DNA from: Minutocellus sp. GHC0000111
Lineage: Eukaryota
Length of the DNA stretch: 64,000 nucleotides
Direction of reading: 5' to 3'
Assembly (NCBI GenBank): GCA_977018835.1
Contig: OZ361257.1
Coordinates: 2,418,001 to 2,482,000, forward strand
Below, piece after piece: positions 7,518-64,000 of the stretch. Positions within the stretch are counted from its first letter, which is position 1; every line of letters starts with the position of its first letter. Both the position numbers and the translations under genes were made by a program. Below the pieces are notes generated by a model that was given only the letters and a program-made list of their open reading frames with translations, was not told the origin of the DNA and searched no databases.

Positions 7518-7889
7518 TGCGCTACTTTGGTCTTTGGGTTCATTTTAGTAGCGTTGACGAAAATAACCCAAACCCGGACTTTTCGGCACGTGTAACAACA
7601 CAATTTTACATGACGATTCTCACGTTTTTTTAACCCCTTGGGGACCATTGTATTAAAAAATATAGGGTAATGAAAACTTAAATGTTCGTTAAACATTTTC
7701 AGGGAAAAGTTTATTAATAATTGAGTACTTTTAACGCACGTAGCTACAAACACCCCTTCATTCATCGACATGGTGGTACCGGTACCGGTTGATCTACCGG
7801 TACTAGCTACGTAGTAGGAATTCCTAGCTAGAAATCATTTATTATTTTTATATGCTGCTGCTTGCTCCAAAAGGACTATATGTAGAGTC

Positions 7890-17700: not shown

Positions 17701-18190
17701 CGGGGTGACGGTTTGGCGCGGGGGCGAGTTTGACCGTGGCCGCTTCTTCGACGTGTTTGCGCTCGGCGATGGTGTTTTCGGCTCAGCTGCCGCCTTTGCC
17801 GCCTTCCTGGATGCCTTGGTGTTGCCTCTCTTGCTCCCTGAGAACGAAGTTCTGCTGCGTTTGTATTTTTTGGGCGTGGTCTGGTTGGTCGTCGTCATCG
17901 TCACAAAATTTGCGGGGGGGTTGCGGTGAGAGGGTGTGCGGGGGACCAAAAAACACATGTGTTCCTGCCAGAATCTACTGGACCTGCGAATTCAGTGGAT
18001 ACTACTGGTCGGTGGCAACCTACTGAATGAGCAGGTCCAGTAGATATCCACGAGTTGAGGAGTATTTGCGTTCCTCCCGAAGAGAACATCGACTAACAAA
18101 ACACGTGGTGGGAGATGAGAAATGGGTGCAAGAATGACCTTTTTTAGGGGTTATTGGTATACCCTCTACAAATCCTCTGAAACCGAAAGG
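14768..18190 (-). mobile_element. Tc1/mariner-type DNA transposon, degenerate
   Basis: 22-bp TIRs CCTTTCG(AG/GT)TTCAGAGGATTTG (20/22); TA at 18191-92 and TG at 14766-67; transposase fragments AHLDE, MDNAGGHG, PRSPETNVLDLGIW in broken frames 15082-17958. Confidence 0.9.
15082..17958 (-). pseudogene. Frameshifted mariner-like DDD transposase
   Basis: Four or more frame pieces (17958-17065, 17204-16443, 16408-16124, 16329-15082); apparent Tyr-to-Cys/His changes (VACDHGCAK, GCLRELHRCA). Confidence 0.85.
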
Positions 18191-21971: not shown

Positions 21972-22856
21972 CTACACCTGAATGAATTTCTCCTTCTTCT
22001 TGCCAACTACCTTGCTCAATATTTCATAATCGGCCACCTCACCATCGAAGTTGCTGGGACTGCTCTCGTCGATGGCATACTTCATCTTTTCGCGGTAAAA
22101 CTTCATGGCTCCTCCGTTCATTTTGAACACCGTCAGCATTACCTTTTGCATGCCATTCTTGTTCGCCACCAGCTCCATGATGTTCATCAGGCGCTTTCCA
22201 AGGCCCGATCGCTGTGCCCGGTCGGACACCTGGATCTCATAGACGTACAGCACCTCCTCCGTCGGCTTCTCATCGTCGTTGGGTTCGAATCGAAAATGCA
22301 CAAAGGCCAATACGTCTCGCTTGGTGGTGCCGTCATCGTTTGCGTTCGCATCGGCACCGTCTGCATCAGCAGCAGCCTCCACGATGAGAAATCGTGCCGT
22401 CTCGTGACGCAGCTCGGACGACTTTTCGTCCAGATCCAATCCCCAACTAGAGGCTTGGTACATGTCGGACATGTTGGCCTTGAAGAGGTCAAGGCAGGCG
22501 TCGTGCAGATCGACGGGAAGAGGAGACGATTGGAAGGCAACCTTGACGGGAATTTTGTTCTTGGGCTTGGTATCCTCATCGCTATTATTTTCCTCTACGC
22601 CGTTGACTTCTGAGGGAACATCCGCGGCCGAGCATGGCGATGGCAGACCGCCCGACGTGCCGTCGGTAGTGGCCCATGCCTTCTTCTCGTCCCCGATGGG
22701 AGCAATATCAAAGGCGAGGAAAGGATCGAGACCATCCAGAGGATTTTCTACCTCGTATGCTGCCTTGATCGACTCCTTCACCCGCTTTGCAGCCTGCGCC
22801 GCCAGCAGTCTCTGGCGCTTCTTCTCGGCCGCCTTGGCGCTCTTCACTTTTCCCAT
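21972..22856 (-). CDS. NAA40: N-alpha-acetyltransferase 40 (NatD)
   Basis: LFKANMSDMYQASSWG, AFVHFRF, VLYVYEIQV, QRSGLGKRLM, KVMLTVFK, IDESSPS, YEILSK. Confidence 0.9.
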   Translation of the reverse strand: MGKVKSAKAAEKKRQRLLAAQAAKRVKESIKAAYEVENPLDGLDPFLAFDIAPIGDEKKAWATTDGTSGGLPSPCSAADVPSEVNGVEENNSDEDTKPKNKIPVKVAFQSSPLPVDLHDACLDLFKANMSDMYQASSWGLDLDEKSSELRHETARFLIVEAAADADGADANANDDGTTKRDVLAFVHFRFEPNDDEKPTEEVLYVYEIQVSDRAQRSGLGKRLMNIMELVANKNGMQKVMLTVFKMNGGAMKFYREKMKYAIDESSPSNFDGEVADYEILSKVVGKKKEKFIQV

Positions 22857-23311
22857 GGTTGAGAGAGTGGAGAATTTGAATTGTGAACGCGCGCCAGCAT
22901 GTCTCGTGCTTGAAAAATTTGGCGCATTGCGCCACAGGAGCTTTCGGGAAATTTGCGGGATGGCGAAAATCGGCTGAATTTTGCATGATTTAGCGTTGAA
23001 GGACCTCGCAGAAATCGGCACGACTTGCGCACATTCCTTTACGTCGACTTTGCGCAAAATTTACGTAAAATTTACGCCGATTTTATGTTCACTTGACGCC
23101 AATTTTACGCCGACTTTACGCCATCTTTACACGCAAAGCATGCCCCGCGAAAGAGCAAGAACATCACCAAATGTGAGTCATCGCCAACAGCAATGCATCA
23201 TGCACTTCTTGCTTGCTTTCATGCACGTGCACACATGAGCCGGAATCTGCACACACATCCTTGTCCTTGTCCTTCCTTGTCCTTTCTAGTCCATGTTTTG
23301 GTGGGGACACG

Positions 23312-24448
23312 ACTTGAAGACTTTGTTGAACATGGCGATGTGGGTGTCGATGATGGGTCCCCCGTCGTGCTGCTTCTCGAGCTGCTTCTCTAATTCCTCC
23401 TTCTGAGTCTCGTTGAATTTCAAGCAGCGATCGGTGATGCTGTGTCGATGATTTGGCGGATGGTGACTGGCTGGAAACCGAGCATGTCATCTTCGAGATG
23501 ATTGATGTAGACGGCGTCGATCGAGTCGAGGAGGAGATTCTTGAGCGCCGTGTTGACTTGCTCGTGCAAGTTGCAGTGGCCCCCTTTTCGACGTGCAACA
23601 TTGTCTCCCCGGACGTTGCACGATCGCGTTGGTCTAGATTGGCCACGGCGGGAATGGTGGGGCTGGAGCCAGGATTTGCCGGAGGCACATGTGGTCGGCC
23701 GTTACTTTTGGTGGTGTGTTCGGCATCGCTGACGACGAGGCCCAAATGGCCGAGGTTGTGGTCATGTTGCACCCTGCTGGAACACGCTGGCCGCCGCTTG
23801 CTTGTTGAAGCTCCTTGAGCGCTTTGGCAACACGCTCGCGTTGGGGAGGTTGTCCTGGGTCATTCATACGTGTGATTAACTTGGTGGGGAGAATCGGCGC
23901 TGCGCCGAGAGGTTGGCCAAAAACTGCGTCGGGATTCATGCTGGTGTTTCAGTCAGCGAAGACAGAGGCAGCACGGCGGTGTTGCTGCTGCGAGACGTGT
24001 GATCGACAGAAGGCTCGATCCAGAGAAGTGTGATCGATTGGATGGGTCGATCTGGTCAGGACTTTCGGGGAAGGGATTGGATCGTCGTTCCAATATTGTC
24101 GAAAGAAACTGTCGTTTTGGCCGATTGAAGATGTGTCGGTTTTTCTTGCGTGACGAGTGAGAACCCAAGACAAACCGGGGAGAGAGGTGCGAACCGAAAT
24201 GGGGCGAGCACGGGTGGAAAAGATGTGTCACGTAGGTCTGCTAAGAGGTCCTAAAGCTAAGCTAGATAGATATAGCTTGTAGAGGTTAATGGGACCTACG
24301 CAGATGAAAAATGGGCCATCGGAGATGTCGTTGGCCCATGATCGTTGGCCCATGGATCAACGGTCAGGAGAGGGCACTGAGTCAGTGGTCTGATCACCGT
24401 ACGTACCGTACGTACGTATACGTACGTACGTAACCCACGGCATCAACG
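23312..24448 (-). mobile_element. Truncated Ty1/Copia (CoDi-like) copy: 5' LTR 24239-24448, leader and 5' part of gag
   Basis: 23313-24038 aligns with 63303-64000; LTR aligns with 58196-58390. Confidence 0.95.
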
Positions 24449-24449
24449 A

Positions 24450-25050
24450 CCCTGGCTTGAACCGCGACCCTGCTCATGCGGGCTTCTGGTTACAGGCAAC
24501 GCCAGACGCTTAAAAACGATTTTCTCTCTCCTGGTCCTCAACTATCCGTAGAGCATCGTTCCCAACATCGTCTTTGTTCCTGTTCTCCCACTCGATCTGA
24601 AGAGCAGCATTGCAGCAATTGTGGCTAGCTTCTTTTTTGTGCAAAAAAGAGAGGCAAACACACACATGCACCTGCATGAAACAGATGAACAGCATGCAAA
24701 TAAATCGATGCATGTTCGAACTCACAACAATGGACGACTCGGCGCTGATCGCTTTGATCCATTTCCACACCCAATGTCGAAATGTCTTCTCGTCAGGACG
24801 ACTTGGATTGCGGACCTTTTGTCACACACACACATGTCGGATTCGGTCCCATGTGTTTTGAGAAACATGATCGCCCAAAGCATGTGTTCTGGACGTGACT
24901 TCGGCACATCGGCAGCACACCGATCCCAAATGTCGGACATCACTTGAGGGGGCGCAGTGCCATGCGATTGCCGCCATCGTCTCCACTGCTGCTCGGGGTC
25001 GGTCGGTCGGCGGATGCAGAGAGAGAGCGACACTTGCGACCGAGCACTTC
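24450..25050 (-). pseudogene. Harbinger/DDE_Tnp_4-like transposase remnant
   Basis: HMLWAIMFLKTHGTE, PDEKTFRHWVWKWIKAI, IEWENR..DVGND pieces; catalytic core missing. Confidence 0.7.
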
Positions 25051-25618
25051 ATTGCCCCATTGCCACCACGCCTCTGGAGGGAAGAGCGCAGTGGCCGTGG
25101 ATTTGGCATGACCATGTGGCTGTCGTCCTGGCTCGCTCCTCCTTGCTCCTCTTTCCTAGCTCGCTTCTTGCCATCTTGGCCGTCTTTGCCCCGCCTGGGA
25201 GCAACATCGACAAATCGCAATCACGAATGAGCAACCCGGAAAGTGAGTCGCCAAACAAGCCCACGAGCAAGGCCCACGAGCAAGACCGAAGCAAAGTGAC
25301 GCCATTGGCACGCCAAGCCAACGTGCACCCATTCAAACGCCCCCCAAGACCCCAACGCCCAGAATTATCGCCAATGAGTCCCCCGGGGCTCATCGGCGAA
25401 TCGTCACGACTTGAGCGCAGATGCATCGCACCCCAAGTAAAAGCATGCGATGTGGATGATGCCACAATCCAAAGATGCCAGATCAGCAGCTTAAGAGGGC
25501 GCTGTCCATAATTTTCCCCGTTTTTAATCCCCCTTATTCTTATTTCTTATGACGAGCGAAGCATGACAAAAACTCGACCCCACCATGAGAATCGCCGCTC
25601 TGCCCCCTCTTCATTACG

Positions 25619-26848
25619 ATGAAGCGCAGCGCTGATAATAGTGCCGGCCCGGCCCACAACGCAGATACCCGGTCGCGGAAACTCAAGACAGATAACTCCG
25701 GTCGCCCGATTTTGCCTGTTGACAAGAAGAAAGAGAAGGCGGAGGACAAAGCGAAAGACGCCGTTACCGAGATACTGGAGGGCCTCGCCGTCACGTTGGA
25801 GAACGACCCGAACGGACAAGGACGAGAATTATGGAACAATCCCGGCGTCGGCCATGCACTTCAACATCTTGTCAAAGCAGTCGAGGCTCGCGCTGATAAG
25901 TATCATGTTCGGGATGATATTGATGTCGCTGCTGAGCGGCCCGGCCTCGTAGTTACCAACCTGTCCGTGGCTGATGTGAAGTTGAGGCTGACGGTCGGCA
26001 TCGTCGATCAATTGCAAGATCCCATGTTTGACGCCGGACCTGAATTCTTCCCTATATTTCAACTTCATGGGAAACGGATCGATATTGGATCGGCTCTTGC
26101 TGCGCACGGCCGACCTTTCAACACCACATCGCTTACTTTGCTTGATGGAAGCGGAAAGCTTATCGTCGCTCGTGTTGCCCTGACAATTACCGAAAAGGAC
26201 CGAAGTCTACAACAGGGCCATGTGATCAAATTGACAAAGTTCCACCGATGGCATGTGGCTCCATATGATGACATACACTCTACTGCTGGGATTGGACTAG
26301 TTGATTTTGATATTGTTGGAATGGGCCAACTTCTGCAGGTAGATGGTGGGCCATCAGCAGCGATCAGATCGGACACGGATGCTCTTGTTGCGGCCGTTTG
26401 TGAGGAAGCCGACGATGATCCGACGGCAGCGTCGGAGGCAGACACATTCGGTAATTGGGACGAGACCAGAGAGAGGCCGCCAATACCCCCTGCTTGCTGC
26501 ACTGCCGCCAACCGAAGCTGCTCAATGTACGGCACACTCTTCTTTCAGAAATGCGTCTGCGAAGAAATGCTGGTGCCGACGGAGGAGGACCTGGAGGATA
26601 TCGCTGACAAATACTACGCAACCACCATGCCAGTCGAAGCCATGGCAAATAATTTCAAGAGGAACATGCTGTATTGGTACTATGCAACTGAGGTGTATCA
26701 TGTGAGAGGTTGGCTTGATCGGAAGCCCTTGCCAACCTGTCTAGTCTTTTGCATTAGGTTAATTTATCCAAATGATAAAGGTGAACGATATGTTGGATTC
26801 ATCCCTGGTCATCAAGATGAAGAGGAAGAAGAAGAGGAAAATGCATAA
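25619..26848 (+). CDS. Kolobok accessory protein (KolX-like) with a putative OB-fold
   Basis: C-terminal RKPLPTCLVFCIRLIYP...G.RYVGF resembles the KolX / P2X7-ballast motif; intact 409-aa ORF within the TIRs. Confidence 0.75.
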   Translation: MKRSADNSAGPAHNADTRSRKLKTDNSGRPILPVDKKKEKAEDKAKDAVTEILEGLAVTLENDPNGQGRELWNNPGVGHALQHLVKAVEARADKYHVRDDIDVAAERPGLVVTNLSVADVKLRLTVGIVDQLQDPMFDAGPEFFPIFQLHGKRIDIGSALAAHGRPFNTTSLTLLDGSGKLIVARVALTITEKDRSLQQGHVIKLTKFHRWHVAPYDDIHSTAGIGLVDFDIVGMGQLLQVDGGPSAAIRSDTDALVAAVCEEADDDPTAASEADTFGNWDETRERPPIPPACCTAANRSCSMYGTLFFQKCVCEEMLVPTEEDLEDIADKYYATTMPVEAMANNFKRNMLYWYYATEVYHVRGWLDRKPLPTCLVFCIRLIYPNDKGERYVGFIPGHQDEEEEEEENA

Positions 26849-26952
26849 TCATTACCTCAACACATGTAGATAACAAGAATGTGCGTAGCACATGAGTAAC
26901 AGCACACAATAAATCCATTTTTATTTACAGTGATAAAATATTTTACACGTGT

Positions 26953-29267
26953 TTACAAGCTGCCATTTTCTCTCAGTATCGCCGGCATCCAAGAGCTAAC
27001 ATCATTTGCCGATACACCGAAGTTTGTCTTAGCTTTCTTATTATTTCTTGCAGATTTCTTGTTGCTGCCTGGGCTTCTGCGCTTCTTTCCGGCGTAAACG
27101 ACAACGTCGTCAGCATCGTCGCATTGACATTCAGCCCGAGTGTGGCCAAGCTGCTTGCATTTCTGACACTGCTGGTCAATCTTCTTCTTGCGGCCAGGCT
27201 TTGCTGGTTTCGCCTTACCAGCAGCTAGGGCCCTGTTCTTCTTGTACACATAGTCCTTGTCGTCTTTCTCGCTTCTGTTTCGCAAGGCTGCTCGAAGGCG
27301 CTTGCTGTCGCTCTTGCTCTTTTTGTACTCATCGGTGCGCTTACGCGCAAGGTCGCCCTCGAGCTTCCGGTCAATTGCATCGAATCCATCTTTTCGGGTA
27401 GGAGAATCCCTCGATCCCAACTTTCCAAGAACTCGCTCATTGAATTCCGTACCCAGTGACTTGTGGCCAGCGGCTCTACTTGTTGCATTTGGGTAGGCGT
27501 CTGAAGCAGTCAAATTCGGCCTTTTCCCCATCGTGAACTTCGTCACCATCCCGTTGAGCTGTTCCGACGCCGGTGGTAGATTCCTTCTTGCAGTTGGAGT
27601 CGGCAGCATTCTTGTTGATTCTCTTGGTTATTTCAAGCGTCATCTTGCGAATCGTGTCGTCACTAATCTCCAATATGTCGCCATCGAATTGATTCCCCGA
27701 GCTCCATTCCTCATCGAGCTTGCCATCACTCCAATCAGGATGAGCAATGCTGAGGCGAATCCAATCACACGTGTTGGTGGTGCAAAAAGTGTGAATGCCA
27801 CATTGGTGACGAACGACGGACTGGAGTTCTTTCTGAAGGAGGGCCAGATGACTTTGTTTTTCCTCCTCGGACACAGCACCATCGGGCTGATCGAGAACGC
27901 TGTGCTTGTACCGATCAGTAATCTTCGAAATGTCCTGTTTCATCCGATTGATGCGTGGTCGGGGGATGGCATAAAAATTTTCAACTCCCAACATTCTCGG
28001 CCAGATGCTCCTCTGCCACACCGGGGGAGTGGGAAGAGTTGCGATAGCAGAAGCCATCATGGTCGTACAGGGCCAGCATCTCATCCTTGCTCATGTTTTT
28101 GAGCTCACTCGGCGTTATTGGATTGCCGGCTTCCCGCCTCTCCCTCAATCTTGCATTGCAGGCTCTCACGCAATGGTGGCAGCTTGCCTGAGAGATTCCC
28201 TTGTCAACAACAAGGCCAGTTTCCTTGTCTACGGCAAATACCGCTGCAGCAGAGCCAGTGTAGCAATGGCCGTAGTCGCGTTTGAGGGCGCTGCCGTCTT
28301 GGGCCACCGTAACCACCGCCGCCGTGTGCATCTCGCCGCCTTGTTCAAACTCAACAGTCTTGCTGCTAGCGGCATGTGCTTTTGCCCTATTCTCGTCAAT
28401 GATTTCATCAGCTGCTTCAACAGCCGCTGCTCTGCATTTCTTTTCCACCTGTCGGGCATTCTTTTCGGTCGGATGGACGATGTCGGCCTTCGTGCAGAAA
28501 TTCATGAAGCGACTTGCGCACATGGCCTCATCTTCCGCTGCCTCCATCAGCTCCAAGCTCATTCCAGCCTGACTTCTAGAATGCTTTCTGCCGGGGCACA
28601 CAACTTCTGACCTCTGGCCGATCCAAGTGCAAAAAGAAAAAGGTTGGTTGCATCTATCGCATCGCCATTCAAATGTAACGCCGAATCCACGCCGAACTGG
28701 CTCGGCCGAGAGATGCAGATTGCCGCACGATCGGTGGAGACTCTGCACGAAATCACACAGCTGCTTCATCTCAACCACAATTCTTTTGCCGTTGAGCTGC
28801 ACGCCGGTGATGTTGGGACGATCGGCAGCGTTGGCGGTGGGAGTAGATGACCGACCGCCCGAAGAATTCTTGTCGGAATAATGTTTCAGCATCGCGTTGA
28901 GATGGGGCCCATGCTTTTCATCGTCCTGGAAGTAATTTTCAGGCATGGTCGGCAGTGATCGCTTGCCATTGCGTTGAGAGCGTGGGCTGGCGTTATCGGC
29001 TATTCTGGAGAAGCGGTAGAAGGGCTTTGCAACGTCAAGGCCTGATATTTTCTCTGGACGTCGTCGTTGGATGTTGACCTCGTGTCGTGTTGGGACGTGT
29101 TGAAGAGATGATCGAACAAGAGAGATCTCTAAGCTCGGCGACACGCCACCGCGCATCAAGATGCGGACAAGCTCATCAATAGTGTAGTAAGTACATCTGA
29201 CGTCGTCTGGGAATGAGAGCAAGAGTGAGAGGATTGCCTCCTTGGCGTTAGCACGTGATGTTTCCAT
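26953..29267 (-). pseudogene. Kolobok DDE transposase, frameshifted and internally deleted
   Basis: VTVAQDGSALKR...TGLVVD...CHHC, CYRN...AEE, SEQLN, C-terminal CQKCKQLGHTRAEC knuckle; three frames, second Asp region absent. Confidence 0.8.
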
Positions 29268-29736
29268 GGTTGTTTTTTTGTTTTGTGTCGGTTCTGGCGC
29301 AAGACACGCTTTTCGATGAGAACCTTACAAAAAGAACCCCAAATGAGGGAGACGTGCAAAAACACCCCAAACAAATATCCCCTTACCTCCCAACAGCAAA
29401 ACTTCAAGATATCTTCCCACCAGCACCACCAATGCTGGTTGTGCGTCGGCCGAGACTAATTTCGGTCGATCCGACAATGATGTGTGCGTCGACTGTTGCA
29501 TTTCTGAGGGAGAAATGATTCATCGAAGTTCCTCTGAACCAAGTGTTCCTGGAGGGATTTCCGACTTAATGCTGAAAGGAACGTCGATGACTCTTCGCCA
29601 CTGTGGAGAGCGGCGGCCTTCGATGAGGAGCCCATTGTCACGTTGGAGTGCTAACTTTGGCGATGGTGCGAAGAAAAAACGGCACAAAACACGCATTTTG
29701 GGGGCTTCCTAAAAGTTATGGACAGCGCCCTCTTAA

Positions 29737-30820
29737 GCCAGGGGAGGCGGACTACGAGAAGTTGAAAGCCACCGCTGCCTTATTGACATCACAGGGCACA
29801 ATCACTGGTACCGAGAGTCCTTTTCCTTCGAAAACAGTCTACGAAAAGGCTGGGCTTCCGATCAACCCTCCCAACGCCGACGGATACAAACCTGCGGCTC
29901 TTCGTGCCGCGATGACTCAAAGAATTCTTCCAGAACTTATAACGCCGAGAGGAGAACCCGAGCAACAAGAACAAGAGGCCGACGGCGACGCTGTGGGCCG
30001 TACATCGGCAACTCCTCGAGTCGATAGGAAGCCTGCTGCCAATGCAACACCCCCAGCTGCTGCAGCTGCACCTGCTACTGGCAACACGCAAGGCTCGCCC
30101 AACCAAACCGAGAACTGGACCGTTGATTCTAGCAGCACAATAATGCCGAAGAAGATTACCGAGTTCCTCCGGGAGGAGTGGGATATTTACACCGATGAAA
30201 GGGGCTGGAAGCTAATGAGGCTTTTTTATCATCCTGTGGAAGGTTGCGATCCTGAGGACGTGAAGTGGACCATCGAGACAGATGACTCGGGCGCCAACCG
30301 AATTCTGCGAATGACATGGACGAGGCCAAAGATTTCGTTCTGGTTCCAAGCAAAGGGTCTCTTCCGAATTTTCTTTGATCTCAATGATAATCAGGAGCCT
30401 CCTATCACCAGCGCTATGAAATTCTCGTTTCAATTCGATCCTAAACAAGAAGAATGATAGACCCAAGGATTTTTTTGTTGAGGTCGAGGAGTGGCTCCTC
30501 CCCTTCGAAGTTGAGCGCATCCTTCATTCTCTCCTCTTCAGGACCATGGCATTGGAGAAAATGATATCTACGCCATTGATGAGAACACGAACGAAGGGTA
30601 TTTCCTTGTTACCATGGTTGTTGATCGCGGAACATTTCATGAAATGGAAACAAGGAAGAAGAACACTTTTGGCAGACGCTGGCGTGATGACAACAGCACC
30701 TATTGTGGCGGTAGCGACGGCGGCAATAATGGTAATAATTGCAATGGAAATGGGCTGCCTTTGTCCACCCTCAAAATTCAACAGCCTCTATGTCGGATGC
30801 TTGATTTGAGTAAAGATTGA
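29737..30820 (+). pseudogene. Accessory ORF of the outer element, interrupted by the Kolobok
   Basis: Removing the Kolobok and one TTAA joins 25475-25494 to this region as MPDQQLKPGEADYEKLK; reading frame breaks near 30457. Confidence 0.5.
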
Positions 30821-31300
30821 ACAGAGGACATGCTATGTTATTTGGATTCATGGAGAACTGGAGATAGGAATGTGGTAGGTGTACTGGTACTACTATCAGC
30901 ATTTGTGCACGTAAATTAAATTACTATTTGATCGTATCTCGCACATATCGTCTTGTAACAAATATTTGTGCAGATGCACCGGCATAATGTCGGTGATTCT
31001 TACGTGTAATGTAAGTGTAATTTACGCATCAATTTACGCATCAAATTTGCGTAAAATTTACGTCGACTCGGCGTCAAATTGATGTTTCCTTGACGTATAC
31101 TTTACGTAAATTTTACGCAAAATTGGTGTCTCTTTTACGTCAAGGCGAAACATGTCTGCGAGGTCGAAAAACACAAAATGTTGCGTGGGACTCCCAAAAC
31201 ACACCTTTTCGCCAAATTCCCGCAAGCTCCAGCGGCCTGTCCGTCGCCACTTCCCTGCCGCCGCAGCAACCGCACACTCAAAACGTCACGACGAACAACA

Positions 31301-53430: not shown

Positions 53431-53500
53431 ACTTGACTCTGTGATACTACGTAGTAGGATCCTATTTCTCGGCAGAAGAGATGGGCCCGGGTGCCCTCTA

Positions 53501-56379
53501 CGAGGTCCGGGACAGCAATTTCGGGGACCCGGTTTTTTGGGTCTTTGGACTTTCCGACACGGCGGTTTGCGCGCACCTTGAAAAACACGCGGCAAAGCAA
53601 GCAAATCAAAACACATCCGTCAACAACCGACCTCCAAGCAATTACCACAAATAGACTGGGCAACTTCTGCCGACTGGCGCTTCAAGAAGCTTCCATACTC
53701 ATGGATACTCCAAAGGGACACATCTTCAGTCCACCGCGTCCACCGAAACGCGCCGAGGCGACTGCATTCAGCCCCTCGCGCCATGAGAAGGAAACTTCCA
53801 ACGAAACGCCGGAACATCCGCGGTATCGAGAGAACAAGGACAACGATGACGAGGAGGACAACCAAGGGGTCCCACCGGCATCGTCAGACCTCACATCTCC
53901 TCGTGTGTTGAAATATCGACGCGAGTACAACGAAGAGGATGGCTTCGCCGCCGAATGAAGGCCGAAGCAATTTTGCAGTTAGGCATGCTATCGTAAACGT
54001 CCTCGGCAGTGTCCCAGATCTGGTCGGTGGAAATGACGGAGGTGCCTACCATTTTTCGTGCCCATTCCGAGTGCCGCCGGCTCATCGCGGGGAACACGCT
54101 CAAGTCAAGGACGTTGGCGTGAGGCATCTGCGGTGCCTGTGGCTGCCACGTCCAGCCTTGCTCAGCACAGAAGTTAGTAACAAATTGCGTGAAGGTTCCG
54201 TCCTCGTGAGGCCCGGCCTGGTCGCCCTGGATAATAACATGGCAATCTTCGTATTGCTTGCCCGGACCGACAAGGTTGAGAATCGCTGGGAAAATAGTCT
54301 CCTTGATTACGAGGAGCAAAGAGCATTTCGGATCCTTTTTGGTGCCTTCGTTCGATCCAGTAACGCAACAATCAACAAGAAACGACTCTCCTTTCCGGCG
54401 AAGAGGTTCCTTTGGTGTCCCATCGGGGTTGGTATTTGGGTGCCGTATTGAACCATCAGGCTGTGATGCTGCTTCGTACTGAGCTCGCTCCGCTATTTTA
54501 GGAGCTTGAGCTCGTACCAGTGGCAGTTTTACAACCTCGCACCCACTCTCAAGAGAACCGTCAAAGACAGCGGCAACAAATGCAATGGCCATGACCTTGT
54601 TGATGTGGCTCCTGTGAAAGGCCGCGTAATCTCGCTTTTTCACGCCGATTTCCTCGCAAGCCTTCGCAAAAGCTCGGAGGACGAGACCCCAGAACCATTT
54701 CTCATCGTAATGCACGAGGAGAACTCGCTTCTTTCCATTCGGTAAATTGCCGTCCGTTTGCGCCTGTCCTTGGCAATTGAATCGGTATTGAGGCCGAGTG
54801 GGATCGGGGTGATGGCCTTGAGAGGCACATTCTTATGCATCATGCCACCAAAAGGCTTCTCACACTGGACATCGCAAAGAGTACCTCCACCGACACCTCG
54901 ACTGACCATAACAAATCCCTTACCCTCAGGCCGATTCATGTTGGGACTGAAGTCGGCAGACACAAGGACATATTCCCCAGTACTGATGGCAGGTCGCATG
55001 TTATCTTCCATTCTCATTGCTTTCTTGCGTTCGGGTGGTGCATCCGTCGGCATCCTGTGCGACCGAAGATGTTCACGCATTTGCACCCTCTGCTCCAAAT
55101 GACGCATCGCCTCCTTCATTTTGTTCCTTTTCTTCTCGGCATCGGCCATGGCCTTTTCATCCTTCCGCTTTTCTCGTTTCAAGGTATCCCTTAGCCCTTT
55201 CAAAGCCTCCTCTGCAGCTTTGTATTGTGCTTCGGCCTCAACCAGCAGCACATCCAAATTCTCCTCGGTCGATCCACCAGAATTGGCGGTGCCGGTAGCA
55301 GAAACACCGACACTGGCAGGATTGCCAGATTCTTCACTGTTGCCGCTTCCATCCACCACCATGGACTCGGTGATGCCCCCAGCTTCGATATTATCATCAC
55401 CAGGACGAGCAGCGATACCAGCATTGTCCTCGACAGTCGGCTCAGGGCTGGCATCGGCGTTATTGGATGACGAATTGCGCCGAGCAATTTGAATTTGAGA
55501 AATCGGCACATCTTGTGCCGGATCAGGACCGGTCTGGCTCGGACAGCACAGCTCCTCCTCTCGGGCTTGCTCCATAACATCCTGCTGTTTCTGAAGTGAG
55601 AGGCCCGCCCATGCCCGGTTCGCTATGGTCTGGATCATCCCAGGAGACTTGCCACGAATCGTAGAGGCATCGATGGTGCCGCTCCGATGGACAAAATAAT
55701 CAAAGCATGGGATGGAGCTGCCGGACCGACGGGAGCGGCGACATGCTGGCGCATCAGCTGCGGTGGCAGCAGTAGTAACAGCCATTTGCATTAATGTGGT
55801 GTTGGATGCAGTATTTTGTGGCAGTAGAGCAACAGTTTGTATGTCGGGTGGGTTGGAAATGAGGAAGGTTTCATTGAGTGGCGGGCGCGCCGGGCGGGTG
55901 ATGATTTTTTTGGCCAGCTCGATTTTGGCGCGGGGTCACCCGGACCGCATGAGATGCGCCATTATGGGGACCATGGAGACCGATATCGGAGCTCAAACCA
56001 TATGGCTACTTGAATCAATGCATTTGGGAGGTGGTGGTGGGGTCGGGAGGTGGAGGAGGTGACCAGTTGTCATCGGAAAAACTGGCAGAAGTCGGGAGGG
56101 GCGATGGATGGGGGGTGAATCGGCCAGACGCTGGCATGGGAAGATGAAATCGACATCTCCGAGTCGGTCCAAGGTCAAGGACCAAACCGTTCTGGAGATG
56201 CCACGCTCATCCCTTGCGTGAAGCGGATGCCGTCGGCACTGCCGTCACCGCCATCTTGAAGACAGGACGATAGCAAATAAATGCTGCTGCTTGCTGCGTG
56301 CGTTTGTGCTGATGATTTTTATGAGATTTTGCCCAAAGACCCGAAAACCGGGTCCCTGAAACTGCTGTCCGCGACCTCG
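53501..56379 (-). mobile_element. Tc1/mariner-type transposon, internally deleted, 2879 bp
   Basis: TA|CGAGGTC...GACCTCG|TA, about 48-bp imperfect TIRs; HYDEKWF, IQGDQAGPH, PQMPHANVLDL (53891-54745); upstream ORF 54640-55791 out of frame. Confidence 0.92.
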
Positions 56380-56624
56380 TAAGACAGACAGTCGTCACCG
56401 CTTGGAGGGTGGGCGCGGCCCATCTAGCAATAAGAGGGTGTGAGTTTTTTTTTTGTTGGCAATAAACTAGGTCGACGAAGAAACACATGTTCCACGCTTA
56501 TTTCCGTCGATTTTGGCGCTGCTTGCTCTCTCTCGTCGTGTTACATCGTAGAAACATCTGCTGCAAAACACAGGCGATGCCAACTTGAACGGCTGTGGCA
56601 GGCAGATCGTGTTTCAGATTTTAG

Positions 56625-58195
56625 AAAGCAAGCCAGCATTCGGAACAAAGATCTCACAAGTGAAGTGAAAGCAAGCCAGCATTCGGAACAAAGATCTCAC
56701 AAGTGGAAGCAGGTACTCCCCGTCGTGGGGAATGTTTGGATTTGACTTTTTGTATTTTAAAAGGGAGTGCTTCAGATTCAATGAGTCACGCGCCAGCACA
56801 TCAAATCGGCCTCATCAAATCCGCAGCATGTCAAAACAACCAGCATGTCAAGCCGCAGCAGCAATCAAACCGCAGCGGCACATCAAACCATACTCACCAC
56901 CCGCAGCATGTCAAAACGTTCAGCGTATCGAACCGCAGCAAATCAATTCTACCCGCATGTCATCAAATGTCAAGAAATCGACCAGCACCACATCAAAACG
57001 CCAAGCACAGACCAGCATGTCTAAAAACGTCCAGCATGTCAAGCCGCAGCAGCAATCACACCACAGCGGCAGCGGCAGCACATCAAACCTCATCAACCGC
57101 GGCAGCACATCAAAACGTCCAGCATGTCAAGCCGCAGCACTAATCAAACCGCCAGCAGCACATCAAACCTCATCAGCCGCGGCAGCACATCAGACCACCC
57201 GCAGCAAATCAAACCTCATCCACCGCGGCAGAAATCTAACCTCACCACCCGCAGCACATTAAAACGTTCAGCACATCTCACAACAGCGGCAGCTGATCAA
57301 ACCGCCAGCAGCGGCAGCGGCAGCGGCAGCACATCAAACCTCATCAACCGCGGCAGCATGTCAAAACCTCCAGCATGTCAAGCCGCAGCACTAATCAAAC
57401 CGCCAGCAGCACATCAAACCTCATCAGCCGCGGCAGCACATCAGACCACCCGCAGCATGTCAAGACGTTCAGCACATCACACTGCAAGTGCAGCACATCA
57501 AATCGTAGAAGCAGCGGCAGCGGCAGTGATCAAACTGCCAGCAGCAAATCAATCTATCCGCGCATCTTGTCACACATGTGTCACCTAAACGACCAGCATG
57601 CCAATGACAGCATTGGGCGCATTGCTTCACTGAAAGCATTCCCCACACACAAGAACATTCAGTTGTCAAAACAGCCTTTCATGTTTCCCAACCATCCTCA
57701 ATCACCTTAACAAATAAGAGTGTGAAAATAGTCCAAAGCAATGGCTCTTCCCCATGATGATTGCCACCCGAAGAAAAAAAGCTTCGTCTTTGCAGCAAAC
57801 CAAACAACAATTTTCACATCACCGCGTTCGGGACGCTGCCTGATTCGTGCATCACATGTTTAAGCACTTTTTTGGTGCCAATAGAAGTGTTTCATTAGTC
57901 TACTTTCTTTTGTTTCTCGTGCTTGCTAAGCACCTCCGACATCGGTTCCGAGTGCTTCGAACATGATTCATCACCGTCAGCGTGTCAACATTTTCAGCAT
58001 TTTTGACATGCTGCTACACCACTCCTCTATGTGAATCTTTAAATTTTTTAAACTAATTGTAACTATTCAAGAGTGCAATCGGATCGGTGCGCCGCCGCAG
58101 CAGCAGCATGTCTTCCAACAACGAACCAGCACGTCAAACGGCCAACCAGCACATCACAAAACGTCCAGCGCATCGCTTCCATTCCACAACCAAAG
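56625..58195. repeat. Degenerate short-motif repeat array (cagcacatcaaa / cagcatgtcaa / ccgcagca) with internal duplications
   Basis: About 140-bp block at about 57066-57207 repeated at about 57317-57457; about 36-bp duplication at 56628-56705. Confidence 0.85.
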
Positions 58196-58442
58196 TGCTA
58201 AGAGGTCCTAAAGCTAAGCTAGATAGATATAGCTAGTAGAGGTTAATAGGACCTACGTAGATGAAAATGGGCCATCGGAGATGTCGTTGGCCCATGGATC
58301 AACGGTCAGGAGAGGGCACTGAGTCAGTGGTCTGATCACCGTACGTACCGTACGTATGTATACGTACGTACGTATCCCACGGCATCAACACACACCCCCT
58401 CGCAGATCAATGACTAGTGCCATTGAATCTTCATGTAGAGTC

Positions 58443-61400
58443 CTAATTGGAATCTACATGTAAGTAGACTGGTCGCATGTCGACATGGTAGCGGGCGGGA
58501 TGGTGCTTTGTAAAATAATCGGCCAAATTTTGCGCTCCTTTCCGCCAGCACACCTGGAATTGTCGTTGCTCTGTGCGATCTTGGACCCAGTAGAATCTCA
58601 TGTCCACAGCCTTAGACCGTCTTTGCTTGACGGTTTTATTGGCGATTCCAGATGCTGTAGAGTTGTCAACGACGATAGCAGTAGGGGGCTGCGGGTGACC
58701 CATTTCTTCTAGTGCTGCCCGGATTGGCACTGCATCTTTCATGTTGAAAAACAATCCTCCCAATTCGGCTTCAGCGGCTGAGGACATTGCATGCTTGATG
58801 ATGTTGGCATTGACGAGGATGGCTCCATTCATTGGTGGCATGGGATCACTTGAGTCAGGCTGGCGGTGCGGGTCCTTAGGTCGGGAGCTTAGGTAGAAGC
58901 ACCCTCCGAGCTTGATTCTTGATTTCGGGGCTGACAAGTGGGAGGCGTCGCTGTGCACATGCAGGATCATGTCTGACTTGACGTGTCGAATGAATGCGTC
59001 GGGATGGGTTGCAAGGCAATCTAGAAGCTTCTTGGCATCTTGTCGAGTGCGCTCGGTAGCTTTGGATTGTTCCGCTGAGATGCTGTTGAGCGCCGGTAAA
59101 ATTGTTGAATCAGTTGCTCGACCACAGTGCAAGGAGCTGCCCACCACCTGTTGAATTTCGTTGATGCCTTTGGCGTCGAGTGGTGGTGAGTCGTCTTCCG
59201 GTTCTGGCAGCTGGGGTCCCGGGCCATGCGTCGGACGATTCCATCGACATGGCGCATGCTCGGGCCGTGAGGGGCGGTCGTGTTGGAACTTGTGGCGCAT
59301 CTCCTTGACGCAGTTAGGCACAGATAGATCCACCCAATTGGCCTCGTAGTTCCACTCGAGTTGAATGCCACAACAAAGTCGGCCTTCCCAATCGGTAGTG
59401 ATCTTATACTTGGAGTTGAGGGCCTGAATGAGATGGTCTGCATGCTCTTTCCCGACACACTTTGCTCCAAAATCGTCAACGGTTAGGCAAAAGGCAATTG
59501 GGCGGGTTTTGTGCCTCCAAAGGCCGGCAGTGCGCTTGCAAGGGAAATAGCCATGGGGTTTGAGATGCTTGACAAGTTGATCGTAGGCTAGGCGCCCTGC
59601 CTGGGGTAATCCATGCATTCCGCCATCGATTCTGACCAACACTCGACCACTCTTTACTTTGTCGTGGAGGTCGTAGGCTTCCATGACTTCGTCGGGGATG
59701 AGAGCTACTGGCGCCCACATCCATTCTGGCTCTGGCATGGTGCTATTGAGATAGAAGTCACTGATGTCAATTCCCATGAAACGAGCGTTGTCTGTAGAGA
59801 TGACGCTGTTGAAAAGTAACTTTGCAGTCAACATTTCAGCGGTCGGGGTCGAGACTGCACCAGGGTAATGAATTTTGTCGCCTCCTGCAGTCCATCGAAC
59901 TCGATTGGGATTTGGTTTATGGGAGCAATAGTCGGCGACAATGCGGAGGCATGTGGCTTTTCCCCCCGAGGCAGTTCGGACCAGTGGACGAAAGCCATTG
60001 TATTGGAGGGAATGCTAGCACTGTTTCCAACTCAAAAGTCCGTTAGCCGTCCAATTTCATCGATGTTTGCTTGAATGAATTGGTCCCTCATGTTCGTTTT
60101 GAGGAGGTCGCGGTATTCAAGCATTGCACCAGCATCGGGATGGACGACGACGTTAGCAAAGTGTTGGAGGTTTGGTAAAGGCGAGAAAGCTGCCATGTTG
60201 GCCACGTGGTGGGCACTGCGACGAGATGATGGCCGTGGGGGAGGGTTCCGATGTGGAATGCACCCTCGCTGACGGTATGATCGTCGTCGAGGTGGTTTGG
60301 CGGTCGATGGTTTGGACTTGCTTGTCGATTTTGCTGGAGCTGGTAATGTTGGAGTGGTGTCGATCGTTGGAGACTTGCGTTTACGTTGCCGACGGGAGGT
60401 GGGGGCATTGGAACTTTGATTGGATGTTACGACGGTTGCATCGTCGTCATGATTATCATCATCGTCGCCGTTGGGCTCGTCTACTGCAGCCAAAGGATTG
60501 TAGTAGTTGGAAGAAACTGACGAGCGAGGTGGCGCGTTGGATCGACGTGATCGACGGCTTTTAGTGGTGGCTGCATCATATGTGGAGGATTTTGCCACCC
60601 TCGGAGGTTGCTGGGGCTGAGGTAACGGAGCGTTGGGGTTGGGGACAAGGTGACGGCCTACTTCAGTCTCGTTCATCTCTTCTACGTCGTCTTCCTCGTA
60701 TTTGATTTTGTAGCACTTGTACTTCTTGTCAAATGCAACGACTCTACCCTTGTAATTGCGATCTCCAAACACTTTGGCGGCGATGGTACCGAGGCGGAAT
60801 CGTTGGGAGTCGTCATCGTTCTCTAGCACCCTCGGAGCTGCGGTTGTCTGCATCGTCTCATCAGAGGCGGAGGTGGCAGATTCTGCTGGGGTCACGCTGT
60901 TGAAAATCTCGGAGAGCTTTTCTAAAGCTTGACGATGCTCGTCTCGAAGGGGAGCAAGGGGTGCCGCTGGATGTGGATTCTGTAGAGCGTGCAGGAGTTC
61001 ATGAGCTGCGACTGTTGCTGCATCGGCCGACGACGTTTTGGGTACCGGAATCATTTTGGGGAGCCAGACGAGTGTGTTACCAGTGCGTTCCGCCCGAGTT
61101 TCCTCAATCCAAACCTTGTAACACCGGTAGTGTTCCATGGCTGGACCGACATAGCACCCATCAATGCCATGCGGGGACCAAGAGCCGCGTGCCGAGGGCA
61201 TCTCGTGAAAGATGACCTTGCATCCGAGGGGGCCGAGAGGCGTGCGATTGAAATCAAAGCCGCCATTGAGTTGCTCGTACGCTGATAGTCGAGGGTTGAC
61301 TCGGGATGCTCTCAGGAAATTGAGGGTCATTACCGCCTGCTCCAGCAATTTATCCCACAAGATGAGGGGAAAGTCGGGATCGGTACCACAGAGAATCGCA

Positions 61401-62623
61401 ATGAAATGATTCTTAAAGGTTCGAATGGCTCGTTCGGCCGCATTTCGGCGGTGGGAGTGCGTTGGGGTCAATTGAAAATCTACATCCTTTTCTTCCATGA
61501 ACTCCTTCAGCTCTCGACTCACTTCATTATCCAATCGTTGCAATTTTGGGCGAAATCCTCGCTTGGAGAGGCATTCGAAAATAGTTTGGTACGCTCGGCG
61601 CATTTCCGTTCCCGATCGGCTTTTCATTGGTTCGGCCAAGATGCTGTTGGAGTCACAGTCACAGACGACCATTATGTACTGGTGGCCAGAAATAGACGAT
61701 ACCAAGAAACGGCCGGGCTAATCTGAGAAGATCTGGCCCGTTATGTCATGACAATCAGCAAAGACATAGTTGGTGCGCTGTTGGTGTTGTGCCGGGTGGA
61801 GATCCTGCTCGGTTTCGTCCACCCCAGGGAGAGATTTTGGCGTAGCCATCGACCGTTTGGGCTTGGTCGACCTGATGTTCTTGCGCTGCTGGTCTAAGTG
61901 ACCTTTAATCATCGGTATCGACTGTGGCATGTGCTTACGTACAAGCTTTGATGTGAGGCCTGGCCAAGATCTATAAAATCCCGCATCGATTGCTTTGCAC
62001 CAGGTAGATAGCTGAGGACTGCCAGCGCACCAATGTAAAAAGGCTACACGTTCCGGAACCGTCTCCTGGGCAATTGCGGCGTTGGCAGCATATTGGATGA
62101 CGTTGGGGCCGGGGAGCGGCGACATGGTGGGCGAGCAATTAAGATCTACCATCCACAATTTCGTTGAGGGGTCTCGTTTACCTTGCAAAATGACGGCATT
62201 GTCCTTGGCGATGACTACCGAATCCTTATCGAAAGTGGCAATGCATCCATCGTCACACAGCTGCCCAATCGATAGGAGCGATGATGCCATGTTATTGAAA
62301 ATATAGGCCTTGCTAGCCGATGGGGAAGCCCCAGGGAGGCGAAGCGTGGCCTCGTGGGTGTTCGTCATTGTGCTATTATCCGGAAGGGTGACGCTGATAG
62401 GAATTGCTGTCTGTTGGACGTTGAAAATAGAGCCATCGCACGATAGGCATTGGGGCTTCTGGACAAAATGTCCCGTCGTTCCAGTGTCTGCGGCGAGGAC
62501 GATTGGCTCTTGAGTTGGAGGTTTGCTTTTTGACGTAAGAAAAGCTAACGAAGGCGGGGAGGAGGTGGATTCAGACATACTATCCTCTATTTTATGCTGA
62601 TTAATATCCACCGTCCCTCCCGC
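58443..62623 (-). pseudogene. pol: Copia pol with nonsense codon (TAG at 61718-20 in SD[Q]PGRF) and frameshifts at about 59840-60040
   Basis: ORF pieces 61718-62611, 60032-61705, 58443-59834. Confidence 0.92.
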
Positions 62624-63906
62624 TCAGTTACGACGCGAGCTACCACCGCAAGGATTGTACTTGGTGGCGTTATCAACGTGGTTGGGCCCTTTGCAAGTGC
62701 ATTCAAAGCTGGGGTGGTTGGACGAATAGCCGCACGTGTGGCAATAATGGCCTCTGGGGAGGATCGACTGCAGTTCCCGCTTCTCCTGGCGGTTGAGGTT
62801 AGGACCTTGGCCTGGGAAGTGGCCGGCGCCGTTCTGCTGGCCACCGCCGCAGTAGCCTCCACTGCCACCAGTATGGTTGCGTCCCTCACGCAGAACGCGG
62901 TTCTCGGCCTTGAGTGAAGCTATTTCTTGGCGAAGTTTGGCAATGGTGTCATCCTTCTCGTTGCTCTTTTTGGCGAGGTTCGCCATCATGGCTTGGTTGG
63001 TCTTGAGGGCTTCGGTGGTGTCAGCCAAAAGGAGATCGGCTCGAGAAAGAAATGGATCGTCCGAGGCCGATGAGGCCAAATTCGCGCCATGATATCCTGC
63101 CGCTTCGGTGGTGGTGTTGGCCATCTTCTTATCATGCCAATCGCGGAAGTCCGACTGCATGTTGGCCCACGTGCAATCGGCCTCCGGACTGTCGTCCCAG
63201 TCCTCGCATGCCTTCTTTGCCAATGAGAACCTGCGCACGGAGCGGTAGAACTTGGAGACCTTTTGCTTGTTGGTGAAGGGTTCGCCGGCCGTTTCAAACG
63301 CCTTGAAGACTTTGTTGAACATGGCGATGTGGGTGTCGATGGGTCCCCCGTCGCACTGCTTCTCGAGCTGCTTCTCTAATTCCTCCTTCTGAGTCTCGTT
63401 GAATTTCAAGCAGCGATCGGTAATGCTGTCGATGATTTGGCGGATGGTGACTGGCTGGAAACCGAGCATGTCATCTTCGAGATGATTGATGTAGACGGCG
63501 TCGATCGAGTCGAGGAGGAGATTCTTGAGCGCCGTGTTGACTTGCTCGTACAAGTTGTAGTGGCCCCCTTTTCGATGTAACATCCCCGGATTGCACGATC
63601 GCGTTGGTCTAGATTGGCCACGGCGGGAATGGTGGGGCTGGGGCCAGGATTTGCCGGAGGCACATGTGGTCGGCCGTTGCTTTTGGTGGTGCATTCGGCA
63701 TCGCTGACGACGAGGCCCAAATGGCCGAGGTTGTGGTCATTGTGCCCTGCTGGAATGCTGGCCGCCGCTTGTTGAAGTTCCTTGAGCGCTTTGGCAACAC
63801 GCTCGCGTTGGGGAGTTTGTCCTGGGTCATTCATGCATGTGATTAACTTGGTGGGGAGAATCGGCGCTGCGCCGAGAGGTTGGCCAAAAACTGCGTCGGG
63901 ATTCAT
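62624..63906 (-). pseudogene. gag: Copia gag, frameshift near 63570
   Basis: GHLGLVVS...P.NPG and Zn knuckle YCHTCGYSSNHPSFEC. Confidence 0.88.
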
Positions 63907-64000
63907 GCTGGTGTTTCAGTCAGCGAAGACAGGCAGCACGGCGGTGTTGCTGCGAGACGTGTGATCGACAGAAGGTTCGATCCAGAGAAGTGTGATCGAT

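What the first reader, a model, noticed from the sequence alone, without database searches (positions are those of the whole stretch)
23150..30500. TA erosion occurs in sharply bounded tracts
Seen: 24703-25156 (about 450 bp) has no TA at all, and depletion runs up to the Kolobok's left TTAA. The continuation of the same interrupted ORF right of the Kolobok (DYEK, VYEK, GYKP, IYTD, FYHP) and the KolX gene (LYWYY) keep their Tyr. The big Copia is also patchy: RT/RH and 5' gag are eroded, while about 60400-60800 and 61700-62600 are much less so. The TA-rich LTRs largely escape. Inference: the process acts on kb-scale domains, perhaps spreading from the Copia insertion or following small-RNA/heterochromatin cover, and acted after the Kolobok inserted.
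Basis: partly seen in the sequence, partly recalled or inferred. Interest (0 to 1): 0.7.

Follow-up and report, generated by a model that had tools for sequence, protein, structure and literature searches.

The report
TA-erasing halos around retrotransposon ends
In what is probably a diatom, DNA within one to two thousand bases of a retrotransposon's end-repeats has had most TA steps rewritten to TG or CA and has gained many tiny duplications while the end-repeat itself stays intact, which suggests that a still unknown genome-defence mutator likely works outward from these repeats.

Summary
The TA-free run 24703-25156 is real. Sister copies keep 14 TAs that the window has turned into TG/CA between 24696 and 25330, and contigs from raw reads match two pieces of the eroded allele exactly. 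The tract is about 23140-25330 and surrounds a truncated Copia LTR. It stops 125-160 bp short of the Kolobok TTAA (25331-25495 is the same in the sister contigs), so the left/right contrast does not date erosion against the Kolobok insertion. The Kolobok has its own eroded transposase half.

(1) Erosion falls with distance from the nearest LTR, in copy B and across 85 family proteins (RTAY Tyr loss 73%, 62%, 46%), while the LTR's own RTAY sites, mostly a (CGTA)n array, are untouched (0 of 9, 0 of 10). (2) Short tandem duplications follow the same profile more steeply (3.9 vs 0.2 per 1000 codons).

TpA hypermutation is in print for Bigelowiella (2026 preprint), and this scan noted it before in other diatom-like genomes. 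I found the LTR-anchored profile and the coupled duplications in neither. Best reading: an element-anchored A-to-G mutator whose dense lesions are likely repaired with duplications; the enzyme is unknown.

The parts
22937..31230 (+). Outer, apparently non-autonomous DNA element with imperfect terminal inverted repeats; about 3-4 haploid copies by contig depth; host of both insertions
   Evidence: contig branch points and depth; inverted arms 22931-22957/31210-31236
23136..23312 (.). Left part of the eroded tract (1 TA left, 0 RTAY; one TA-to-TG seen against the empty-site loose end)
23313..24238 (-). Truncated Copia copy A: 5' gag and leader; TA-eroded, with many 2-4 bp tandem duplications
   Evidence: alignment with copy B; family contigs
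24239..24447 (-). 5' LTR of copy A; 19 TA kept, 2 changed; 0 of 9 RTAY hit, 8 of them in the (CGTA)n array 24400-24431
24561..25330 (.). Core of the tract: 14 TA-to-TG/CA and 4 AA-to-AG changes against sister copies in 24696-25330, plus repeated tandem expansions; contains the TA-free run 24703-25156
25331..25495 (.). Unchanged spacer between the tract edge and the Kolobok TTAA (3 TAs intact, identical in the sister contigs)
25227..30457 (+). ORF of the outer element, split by the Kolobok (25227-25495 and 29737-30457); the right part keeps 5 Tyr and had no Pfam hit
25496..29732 (.). Kolobok-type transposon between TTAA copies (25492-25495, 29733-29736); left half almost uneroded, transposase half (about 28000-29500) eroded
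58196..58389 (-). 3' LTR of Copia copy B; 22 TA kept, 0 of 10 RTAY hit
56000..60020 (.). Eroded zone on both sides of the 3' LTR of copy B (RTAY index 0.03-0.05 outside the LTR)
60021..63290 (-). Less eroded middle of Copia copy B (RTAY index about 0.2)
63291..64000 (-). Eroded 5' gag and leader of copy B, within about 0.9 kb of its 5' LTR (outside the window; position inferred from copy A)

Best explanation
Transposon DNA here is rewritten A-to-G at TpA on both strands, in zones of about 1-2 kb that flank the Copia LTRs and spare the LTR core, and the likely cause is a host adenine-modifying enzyme (probably a DNA adenine deaminase) recruited at or next to the LTR. SHOWN: the TA-to-TG/CA spectrum, the RTAY preference, the fall-off with distance from the LTR, the intact (CGTA)n array, and insertion-biased tandem duplications with the same profile. 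INFERRED: the enzyme is tethered by a factor or chromatin mark on the LTR, and the bound core is shielded. Where lesions are dense, nicks on opposite strands of neighbouring TA sites would give staggered breaks or strand slippage that are filled in as short duplications. Each copy would have a tract of its own length, so the family average looks like a gradient. LTRs are not the only anchors: the Kolobok transposase half and a DDE element at 15700-18000 carry tracts with no LTR of this family beside them.
For: (1) Spectrum. Window vs majority sister contigs in 24696-25330: 25 substitution rows, 21 of them transitions, all A/T to G/C in the window; 14 at TA and 4 at AA/TT. Copies A and B take opposite products at the same sites. 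(2) Contigs with 0 differences to the eroded allele: 24578-24726 listed in 3 of 4 runs, 25266-25360 in 4 of 4, at depth about 100 where the host flank has 198 (X2). (3) Context in 46 family pol proteins. Tyr lost in 207 of 356 calls at 24 RTAY sites vs 74 of 392 at 25 YTAY sites; His (bottom-strand event) 98 of 356 vs 10 of 392. (4) Gradient over 62 Tyr sites (46 pol + 39 gag proteins). RTAY 175/241, 77/125, 71/154 and YTAY 67/234, 36/177, 20/171 for <1.1, 1.1-2 and 2-3 kb from an LTR; pooled rho -0.49, p=5e-5. Within single proteins, near > far in 11 of 13 (cut 1.1 kb, p=0.02) and 9 of 11 (cut 2.3 kb, p=0.01). (5) LTR RTAY sites: 0 of 9 hit in A vs 15 of 17 counted by hand around it (p=2e-5); 0 of 10 in B vs 14 of 24 RTAY Tyr sites (p=0.002). 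(6) In-frame insertions 22 vs deletions 6 in family proteins; 14 of the 22 lie within 600 bp of an LTR (3.9 vs 0.2 per 1000 codons beyond 1.1 kb). 15 of 17 extra-base events examined in the window plainly repeat adjacent letters. (7) About 50-fold hazard preference for TA over AA, estimated by hand (about 15 of 16 TA vs 4 of about 78 AA/TT). (8) Paired nicks on opposite strands raise tandem duplications in human cells (PMC11081867, passages).
Against: No enzyme, chromatin mark or small RNA was observed; no genome is held. The within-protein test at a 1.6 kb cut was not significant (p=0.38, 8 proteins), and two of the four side-by-class trends were not significant alone (p=0.13, 0.24). Insertions in family pol proteins are not significantly closer to ancestral TA sites than chance (4 of 10 within 2 bp, p=0.11). 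Pair clustering beyond row and column totals appears only at 300 bp or less. Some derived residues look inherited, e.g. 61156 C11/H0, so selection on parent copies may shape part of the gradient. No contig with the window's allele was seen for 24737-25139 in the 4 organism-A runs, whose library type is not on record and which may be the assembly's own sample. The link between Copia insertion and flank erosion rests on one locus. Tracts without an LTR exist. The 4 AA-to-AG changes also fit a polymerase.
Confidence: 0.5

Rival explanations
1. Error-prone patch resynthesis: repair that starts at or near the LTR (for example at methylated CpG mismatches or nicks) excises 1-2 kb, and a Pol eta-like polymerase refills it, making WA-to-WG errors and slippage duplications in one step, with no adenine lesion.
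For: Explains substitutions and duplications together. AA-to-AG is the second commonest change (4 of 21 transitions; further TT-to-CT at 24014 and 30999). Pol eta mutates WA hotspots in Exo1-excised patches (PMC7884765, passages). Short-range clustering at 300 bp or less.
Against: The TA over AA preference of about 50-fold is far above the roughly 2-fold I recall for Pol eta (recalled, not checked). The Bigelowiella hypermutations all fall on TpA. Resynthesis starting at the LTR should not spare the LTR array.
Confidence: 0.22
2. The mutator covers silent repeat chromatin broadly, with no LTR anchor. The profile arises from selection on parent copies (integrase core conserved, gag and RNase H ends tolerant), from spreading in from element edges, and from gene conversion restoring the roughly 100 LTR copies.
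For: The coldest stretch is the integrase core (OR 0.54). Some alleles look inherited. Conversion falls as copy number rises: outer element 3-4 copies, gag tens, LTR and Kolobok about 100 by contig depth. Tracts occur without LTRs.
Against: Copy B is dead (stops at 61720 and 60034, frameshift near 59960), yet its RT core is RTAY-depleted when all positions, silent ones included, are counted (1:16). Cys and His both recur at most RTAY sites, which means independent events. The low-copy ORF remainder 29737-30370 keeps 17 TA with at most 5 differences, while the equally low-copy tract lost 14 of 15 (p=3e-5).
Confidence: 0.2
3. One reading: one sharply bounded domain spread from the Copia and was stopped by an already inserted Kolobok.
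For: The edge lies within 160 bp of the Kolobok, and the Kolobok's left 2.5 kb is nearly unchanged (9 differences in 2497 bp).
Against: The edge is at 25330-25366, not at the TTAA. A Kolobok needs an intact TTAA (recalled), so a later insertion would also tend to land just outside a tract. Either order fits the data.
Confidence: 0.05
4. Sequencing or assembly artefact: base modifications misread by a long-read platform.
For: Library type of runs X1, X2, X3 and X5 is not on record, and the middle of the tract was not seen with the window's allele.
Against: Exact contigs from raw reads at half the host depth; unmutated sister copies in the same runs; reciprocal Cys/His states and a position gradient in 85 family proteins; the Bigelowiella study Sanger-confirmed 19 of its SNMs.
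Confidence: 0.03

Closest known systems
TpA hypermutation of integrated viral DNA in Bigelowiella natans (Mettrop et al., bioRxiv 10.64898/2026.01.13.699255; parts 1-4 of 5 read, supplements not seen)
   Same: TpA to TpG/CpA on both strands, aimed at foreign or repeated DNA; TE domains enriched among TpA-poor genes; kb-scale TpA-poor clusters; adenine deaminase proposed, not shown.
   Different: There: a rhizarian alga, 25 and 186 kb viral regions, all hypermutations on TpA, and no gradient, spared core, RTAY context or coupled duplications in the text read ('boundar' 0, 'polymerase' 0, 'diatom' 0; 21 indels not placed in the main text). Here: a likely diatom, 1-2 kb zones beside LTRs, a minor AA-to-AG class, insertion-biased duplications.
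Repeat-induced point mutation (RIP) of fungi (abstract start of PMC7296669 seen; CpA context recalled)
   Same: Repeat-directed point mutagenesis on both strands that degrades transposons.
   Different: Opposite chemistry: RIP is C-to-T and creates TpA, whereas this removes TpA. RIP hits the repeated sequence itself; here the most repeated part (the LTR) is spared.
Somatic hypermutation by AID plus Pol eta (PMC7884765, passages)
   Same: Targeted mutagenesis with WA-to-WG changes in patches; a finite reach from an anchor with the promoter spared (recalled).
   Different: No C-to-U primary signature at WRC was seen here; TA is preferred far more than AA; zones lie on both sides of the LTR; the changes are heritable and in transposons.
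ADAR-type A-to-I editing (PMC10661471, passages)
   Same: A-to-G with a 5' T/U preference.
   Different: ADAR's preferred site is UAG, whereas here TAC and TAT exceed TAG and TAA. The changes are on both strands and in DNA-transposon and flanking DNA, so they are not reverse-transcribed RNA edits.

Membership tests
Bigelowiella-type TpA hypermutation | A:T to G:C transitions at TpA on both strands | tested here: met
   14 of 21 transitions at TA, both TG and CA products; Cys and His from Tyr
Bigelowiella-type TpA hypermutation | Exclusively TpA | tested here: inconclusive
   4 AA-to-AG and 3 other transitions beside 14 TA; these accumulated over unknown time, so ordinary mutations are mixed in
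Bigelowiella-type TpA hypermutation | Restricted to foreign or repeated DNA | tested here: met
   RTAY index 0.29-0.66 in 12 of 12 host coding stretches vs 0-0.06 in the tracts; host flank 22500-22966 has 0 differences
Bigelowiella-type TpA hypermutation | Measured 1000-fold raised rate, active in only some lines | not testable with these tools
   needs mutation accumulation; copies range from 0 to 57% eroded
RIP | C-to-T at CpA, TpA gain | tested here: not met
   the direction is TA loss
AID/Pol eta hypermutation | WA-to-WG with AA a major target, plus WRC C-mutations | tested here: not met
   about 15 of 16 TA vs 4 of about 78 AA/TT; no window-side C-to-T among the 25 rows
DNA adenine deaminase pathway | Enzyme present, inosine in DNA, dependence on the gene | not testable with these tools
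   no genome held
ssDNA-specific deaminase | Paired (hairpin) sites escape | tested here: inconclusive
   the LTR array folds at -15 to -17 kcal/mol, but 0 of 12 correlations of pairing with Tyr loss were significant
Kolobok transposon (features recalled) | TTAA duplication, short TIRs starting with RR, DDE transposase plus convergent second gene | tested here: met
TTAA on both sides and empty site; TIR 27 nt at 96%; PF20700 hit E 2.5e-14.
Ty1/Copia LTR retrotransposon | LTRs, gag-integrase-RT-RNase H order, RVT_2 | tested here: met
   RVT_2 E 1e-4, below the curated cut-off; relatives named as integrase-domain proteins of Phaeodactylum

The most novel reading that the evidence does not exclude
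Diatoms carry an LTR-anchored DNA adenine mutator: a factor bound on the retrotransposon's end-repeat shields its own site, edits TpA on both strands for 1-2 kb on either side, and at high lesion density breaks and refills the DNA as micro-duplications, creating frameshifts and new microsatellites. This would be a targeted genome defence with a defined anchor, unlike RIP.
Probability: 0.3. Interest if true: 0.85.

Novelty: new variant of a known kind. Interest (0 to 1): 0.62.

Why it matters
TpA hypermutation is reported from one alga, with no known enzyme or targeting rule. A profile anchored on LTRs with a protected core gives a concrete place to look for the recruiter and a simple reporter design. 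The coupled duplications matter because TA-to-TG/CA changes cannot create stop codons, so frameshifting duplications may be what actually kills elements. They also help tell a deaminase-plus-break pathway from an error-prone polymerase. A natural DNA adenine deaminase would interest base-editing work. In practice, TA content alone misplaces tract edges; sister copies and RTAY context are needed.

Tried and rejected
Whole-genome analysis: no genome is held. A metagenome scan for the outer element found 0 matches. The scan for Copia RT gave 13 loci at 48-73% identity, too distant for site-level use and not used further. A viral-contig scan for the Kolobok transposase gave no relative. Plain TA observed/expected as a tract marker was rejected because host genes are as low. 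Context alone as the reason for LTR escape: it can account for the YTAR/RTAR-rich half but not for the RTAY array. Hairpin protection in coding DNA: no correlation. Insertions sitting at TA sites: not significant. Insertion rate vs erosion per protein: rho 0.15, p=0.38, 39 proteins. Dating erosion against the Kolobok: neither order is excluded. The second Kolobok ORF has no similarity to the ORF at 6414-7544. The protein atlas gave no answer for the outer ORF. The first site table mislabelled silent sites and was refiltered to 159 of 358 sites. Of the 37 rows, 6 were left out (five at 24484-24488 from another multi-copy flank, one alternative alignment at 24997), and 24480 and 24488 were not counted as private. 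In one search one gag site (110) was dropped for a misaligned context, and two sites with no Tyr left (gag 55 and 109, fully eroded, near the 5' LTR) were not counted. Literature searches without a useful hit.
Full report
SETTING. The window is eukaryotic, 52% G+C. The named relatives of its Copia integrase come from Phaeodactylum, Fragilaria and Attheya, so it is probably a diatom (inferred; host genes were not placed taxonomically). No whole genome is held. I therefore used contigs of public runs and unnamed family proteins from long-contig assemblies as sister copies.

ANATOMY. An outer element with imperfect inverted ends spans 22937-31230 (contig branch points; arms), at about 3-4 haploid copies by depth. 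It holds a truncated Copia (5' gag 23313-24238 and 5' LTR 24239-24447, minus strand) and a Kolobok-type element between TTAA copies (25496-29732). Contigs in 4 of 4 runs join 25489 to 29732, so empty alleles exist, and the split ORF is in frame across the TTAA. A second, nearly full Copia (copy B) lies at 58196-64000.

THE OBSERVATION. 24703-25156 has no TA against 21.4 expected, and 0.004 such runs are expected at the host coding rate. One search listed 37 substitution rows in 24420-25525, of which 31 were classified. Between 24696 and 25330 the window differs from the majority sister contigs at 25 places. 21 are transitions, all A/T to G/C in the window: 14 at TA, 4 at AA/TT, 3 others. Two pieces of the window's allele occur as exact contigs: 24578-24726 (listed in 3 of 4 runs) and 25266-25360 (4 of 4), at about half the host depth. 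Against this, no contig with the window's letters was seen for 24737-25139, the four runs are at most two samples of one study, and their library type is not on record.

THE EDGES. The last changed TA is 25330, and 25331-25495 is identical in the sister contigs. Depletion up to the TTAA is therefore shared composition, not this copy's erosion. The right edge rests on 3 surviving TAs (14 of 15 lost vs 0 of 3, p=0.005) and the left on 9 survivors with 1 loss in 22937-23161 (p=5e-5). None of these 12 survivors is RTAY, so the edges are real but coarsely resolved. The ORF remainder keeps 17 TA with at most 5 differences in 29732-30370, and the Kolobok's left 2.5 kb keeps 86 TA with 9 differences. 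Scattered hits occur outside the tract (23055, 29363, 29499, 30518).

TIMING. DNA 1.1-1.6 kb from the LTR is intact whichever came first (4 RTAY in the ORF remainder, 6 at the KolX end). The Kolobok is also not uniformly spared: 28239-29046 has no RTAY, and 28115-28688 differs from RNA-run contigs by 1.6-2.0% against about 0.35% on the left (p=0.003 twice). Against 9 close transposase fragments, the window shows His for Tyr at 28175 and 28031, Val for Ile at 29363, and reciprocal Cys/His states at five sites: 29306, 28883, 28715, 28520, 28376. A cut-and-paste element may have brought these from an earlier site.

CONTEXT. An earlier scan note (e1-7621765) suggested that TAY is hit and YTAR survives. 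In 46 family pol proteins, Tyr is lost in 207 of 356 calls at RTAY sites and 74 of 392 at YTAY sites; His arises in 98 of 356 vs 10 of 392. The ratio RTAY/(RTGY+RCAY) separates host coding DNA (0.29-0.66, 12 of 12 stretches) from tracts (0-0.06) much better than TA observed/expected does.

LTR-CENTRED PROFILE. All three LTR positions have eroded DNA beside them: copy A from about 23140 to 25330; copy B from about 56000 to 60020 around its 3' LTR; and 63291-64000 near its 5' LTR (3:93 near vs 21:94 in the middle, p=4e-4). I then used gag proteins as a fresh test. Over 62 Tyr sites, loss falls from 73% to 62% to 46% (RTAY) and from 29% to 20% to 12% (YTAY) with distance; pooled rho -0.49, p=5e-5. 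All four side-by-class trends are negative, two significant. Within single proteins the near zone is more eroded in 11 of 13 and 9 of 11 at two cut-offs, and not significantly at a third. The LTR itself is spared: 0 of 9 and 0 of 10 RTAY hit, mostly in a (CGTA)n array, against 15 of 17 (counted by hand) and 14 of 24 nearby. Family proteins are not independent samples: two near-duplicate pairs were dropped only, and some alleles look inherited. Only 15 members of the 113- and 71-member clusters were listed.

DUPLICATIONS. Of 17 extra-base events examined in the window, 15 plainly repeat adjacent letters. The indel tables were cut to 12 of 102 and 12 of 15 rows, and one 9-base difference runs the other way. 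In family proteins, in-frame insertions outnumber deletions 22 to 6, and 14 of the 22 lie within 600 bp of an LTR: 3.9, 0.5, 0.2 and 0.2 per 1000 codons by distance band. The excess holds separately for pol (7 of 10 within 1.1 kb, p=0.006) and gag (7 of 12 within 0.7 kb, p=0.009). They are not significantly nearer to TA sites than chance, and protein ends may simply tolerate indels if parent copies were under selection.

MECHANISM. Shown: spectrum, context, gradient, spared array, coupled duplications. Inferred: a TpA-specific adenine lesion, most simply deamination, made by an enzyme recruited at the LTR whose bound core is shielded; dense lesions on both strands would give staggered breaks filled in as duplications, as paired nicks do in human cells (PMC11081867, passages). 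A Pol eta-like patch (PMC7884765, passages) explains the AA class and slippage, but not the strong TA bias or the spared array. Broad repeat-chromatin targeting plus selection and gene conversion remains possible; diatom TEs are silenced by DNMT5 methylation (PMC9998398, abstract). LTRs are not required, since 15722-18000 and the Kolobok transposase half are also eroded.

PRIOR KNOWLEDGE. The Bigelowiella preprint (parts 1-4 of 5 read; supplements closed, and they may bear on the indel and context claims) reports TpA-only hypermutation of integrated viral DNA and proposes an adenine deaminase. Searches listed no diatom paper on this. The scan holds 14 notes on TpA erosion in other diatom-like genomes, 8 shown, including one sharp edge inside an ORF. 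Word searches for duplications, microsatellite expansion and an LTR gradient returned none, the LTR-escape search returned two partial matches, and there were no notes on this genome or look-alikes.

VERDICT. It is a new variant of a known kind; the LTR-anchored, core-spared profile and the coupled duplications are the new and testable parts. Interest 0.62.

Noticed in passing
window 60650-60780 (minus strand, Copia B): A Tudor domain (PF21743, E 6e-11, above cut-off) follows the integrase; also on family representative P0001. A possible chromatin reader in a Copia integrase tail.
   Followed up: no
window 15082-18000: DDE-like transposon ORFs with a second tract (2 RTAY between 15723 and 17999), next to a TA-rich intact zone from 18000 and a 73-bp inverted repeat at 17973-18045; no LTR of this family beside it.
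   Followed up: partly
window 56600-58190: Degenerate tandem repeats left of the 3' LTR, RTAY 4 vs 103 derived forms; looks like an eroded, expanded satellite.
   Followed up: partly
window 22937-31230: Outer element with imperfect inverted ends and no clear target duplication, starting about 80 bp upstream of a host GNAT gene's start codon (22858); the right part of its ORF has no Pfam hit. One sister copy has a 5580-bp internal deletion (25209-30790 joint).
   Followed up: partly
window 24400-24431 and 58342-58373: Self-complementary (CGTA)n array in the LTR; CpG-dense, folds at -15 to -17 kcal/mol, and contains TACGTA, which I recall as a bZIP A-box motif.
   Followed up: partly
window 61720, 60034, about 59960, 62624: Copia B is dead (two stops, one frameshift); the stop at the end of gag (62624) is shared by family gag proteins.
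   Followed up: yes
window 27564 and 27981: The Kolobok transposase is broken by a 1-bp insertion at 27564 and a frame change near 27990; the intact relative P0332 is 853 aa.
   Followed up: partly
window 53891-55935: Two further TE-like ORFs (one DDE-like) between short inverted repeats at 53499-53548 and 56333-56381, only mildly TA-poor.
   Followed up: no
window 23309-23313 and 24446-24450: The Copia fragment is bounded by a 5-bp microhomology; an X4 contig joins 23298 to 24451 without it.
   Followed up: partly
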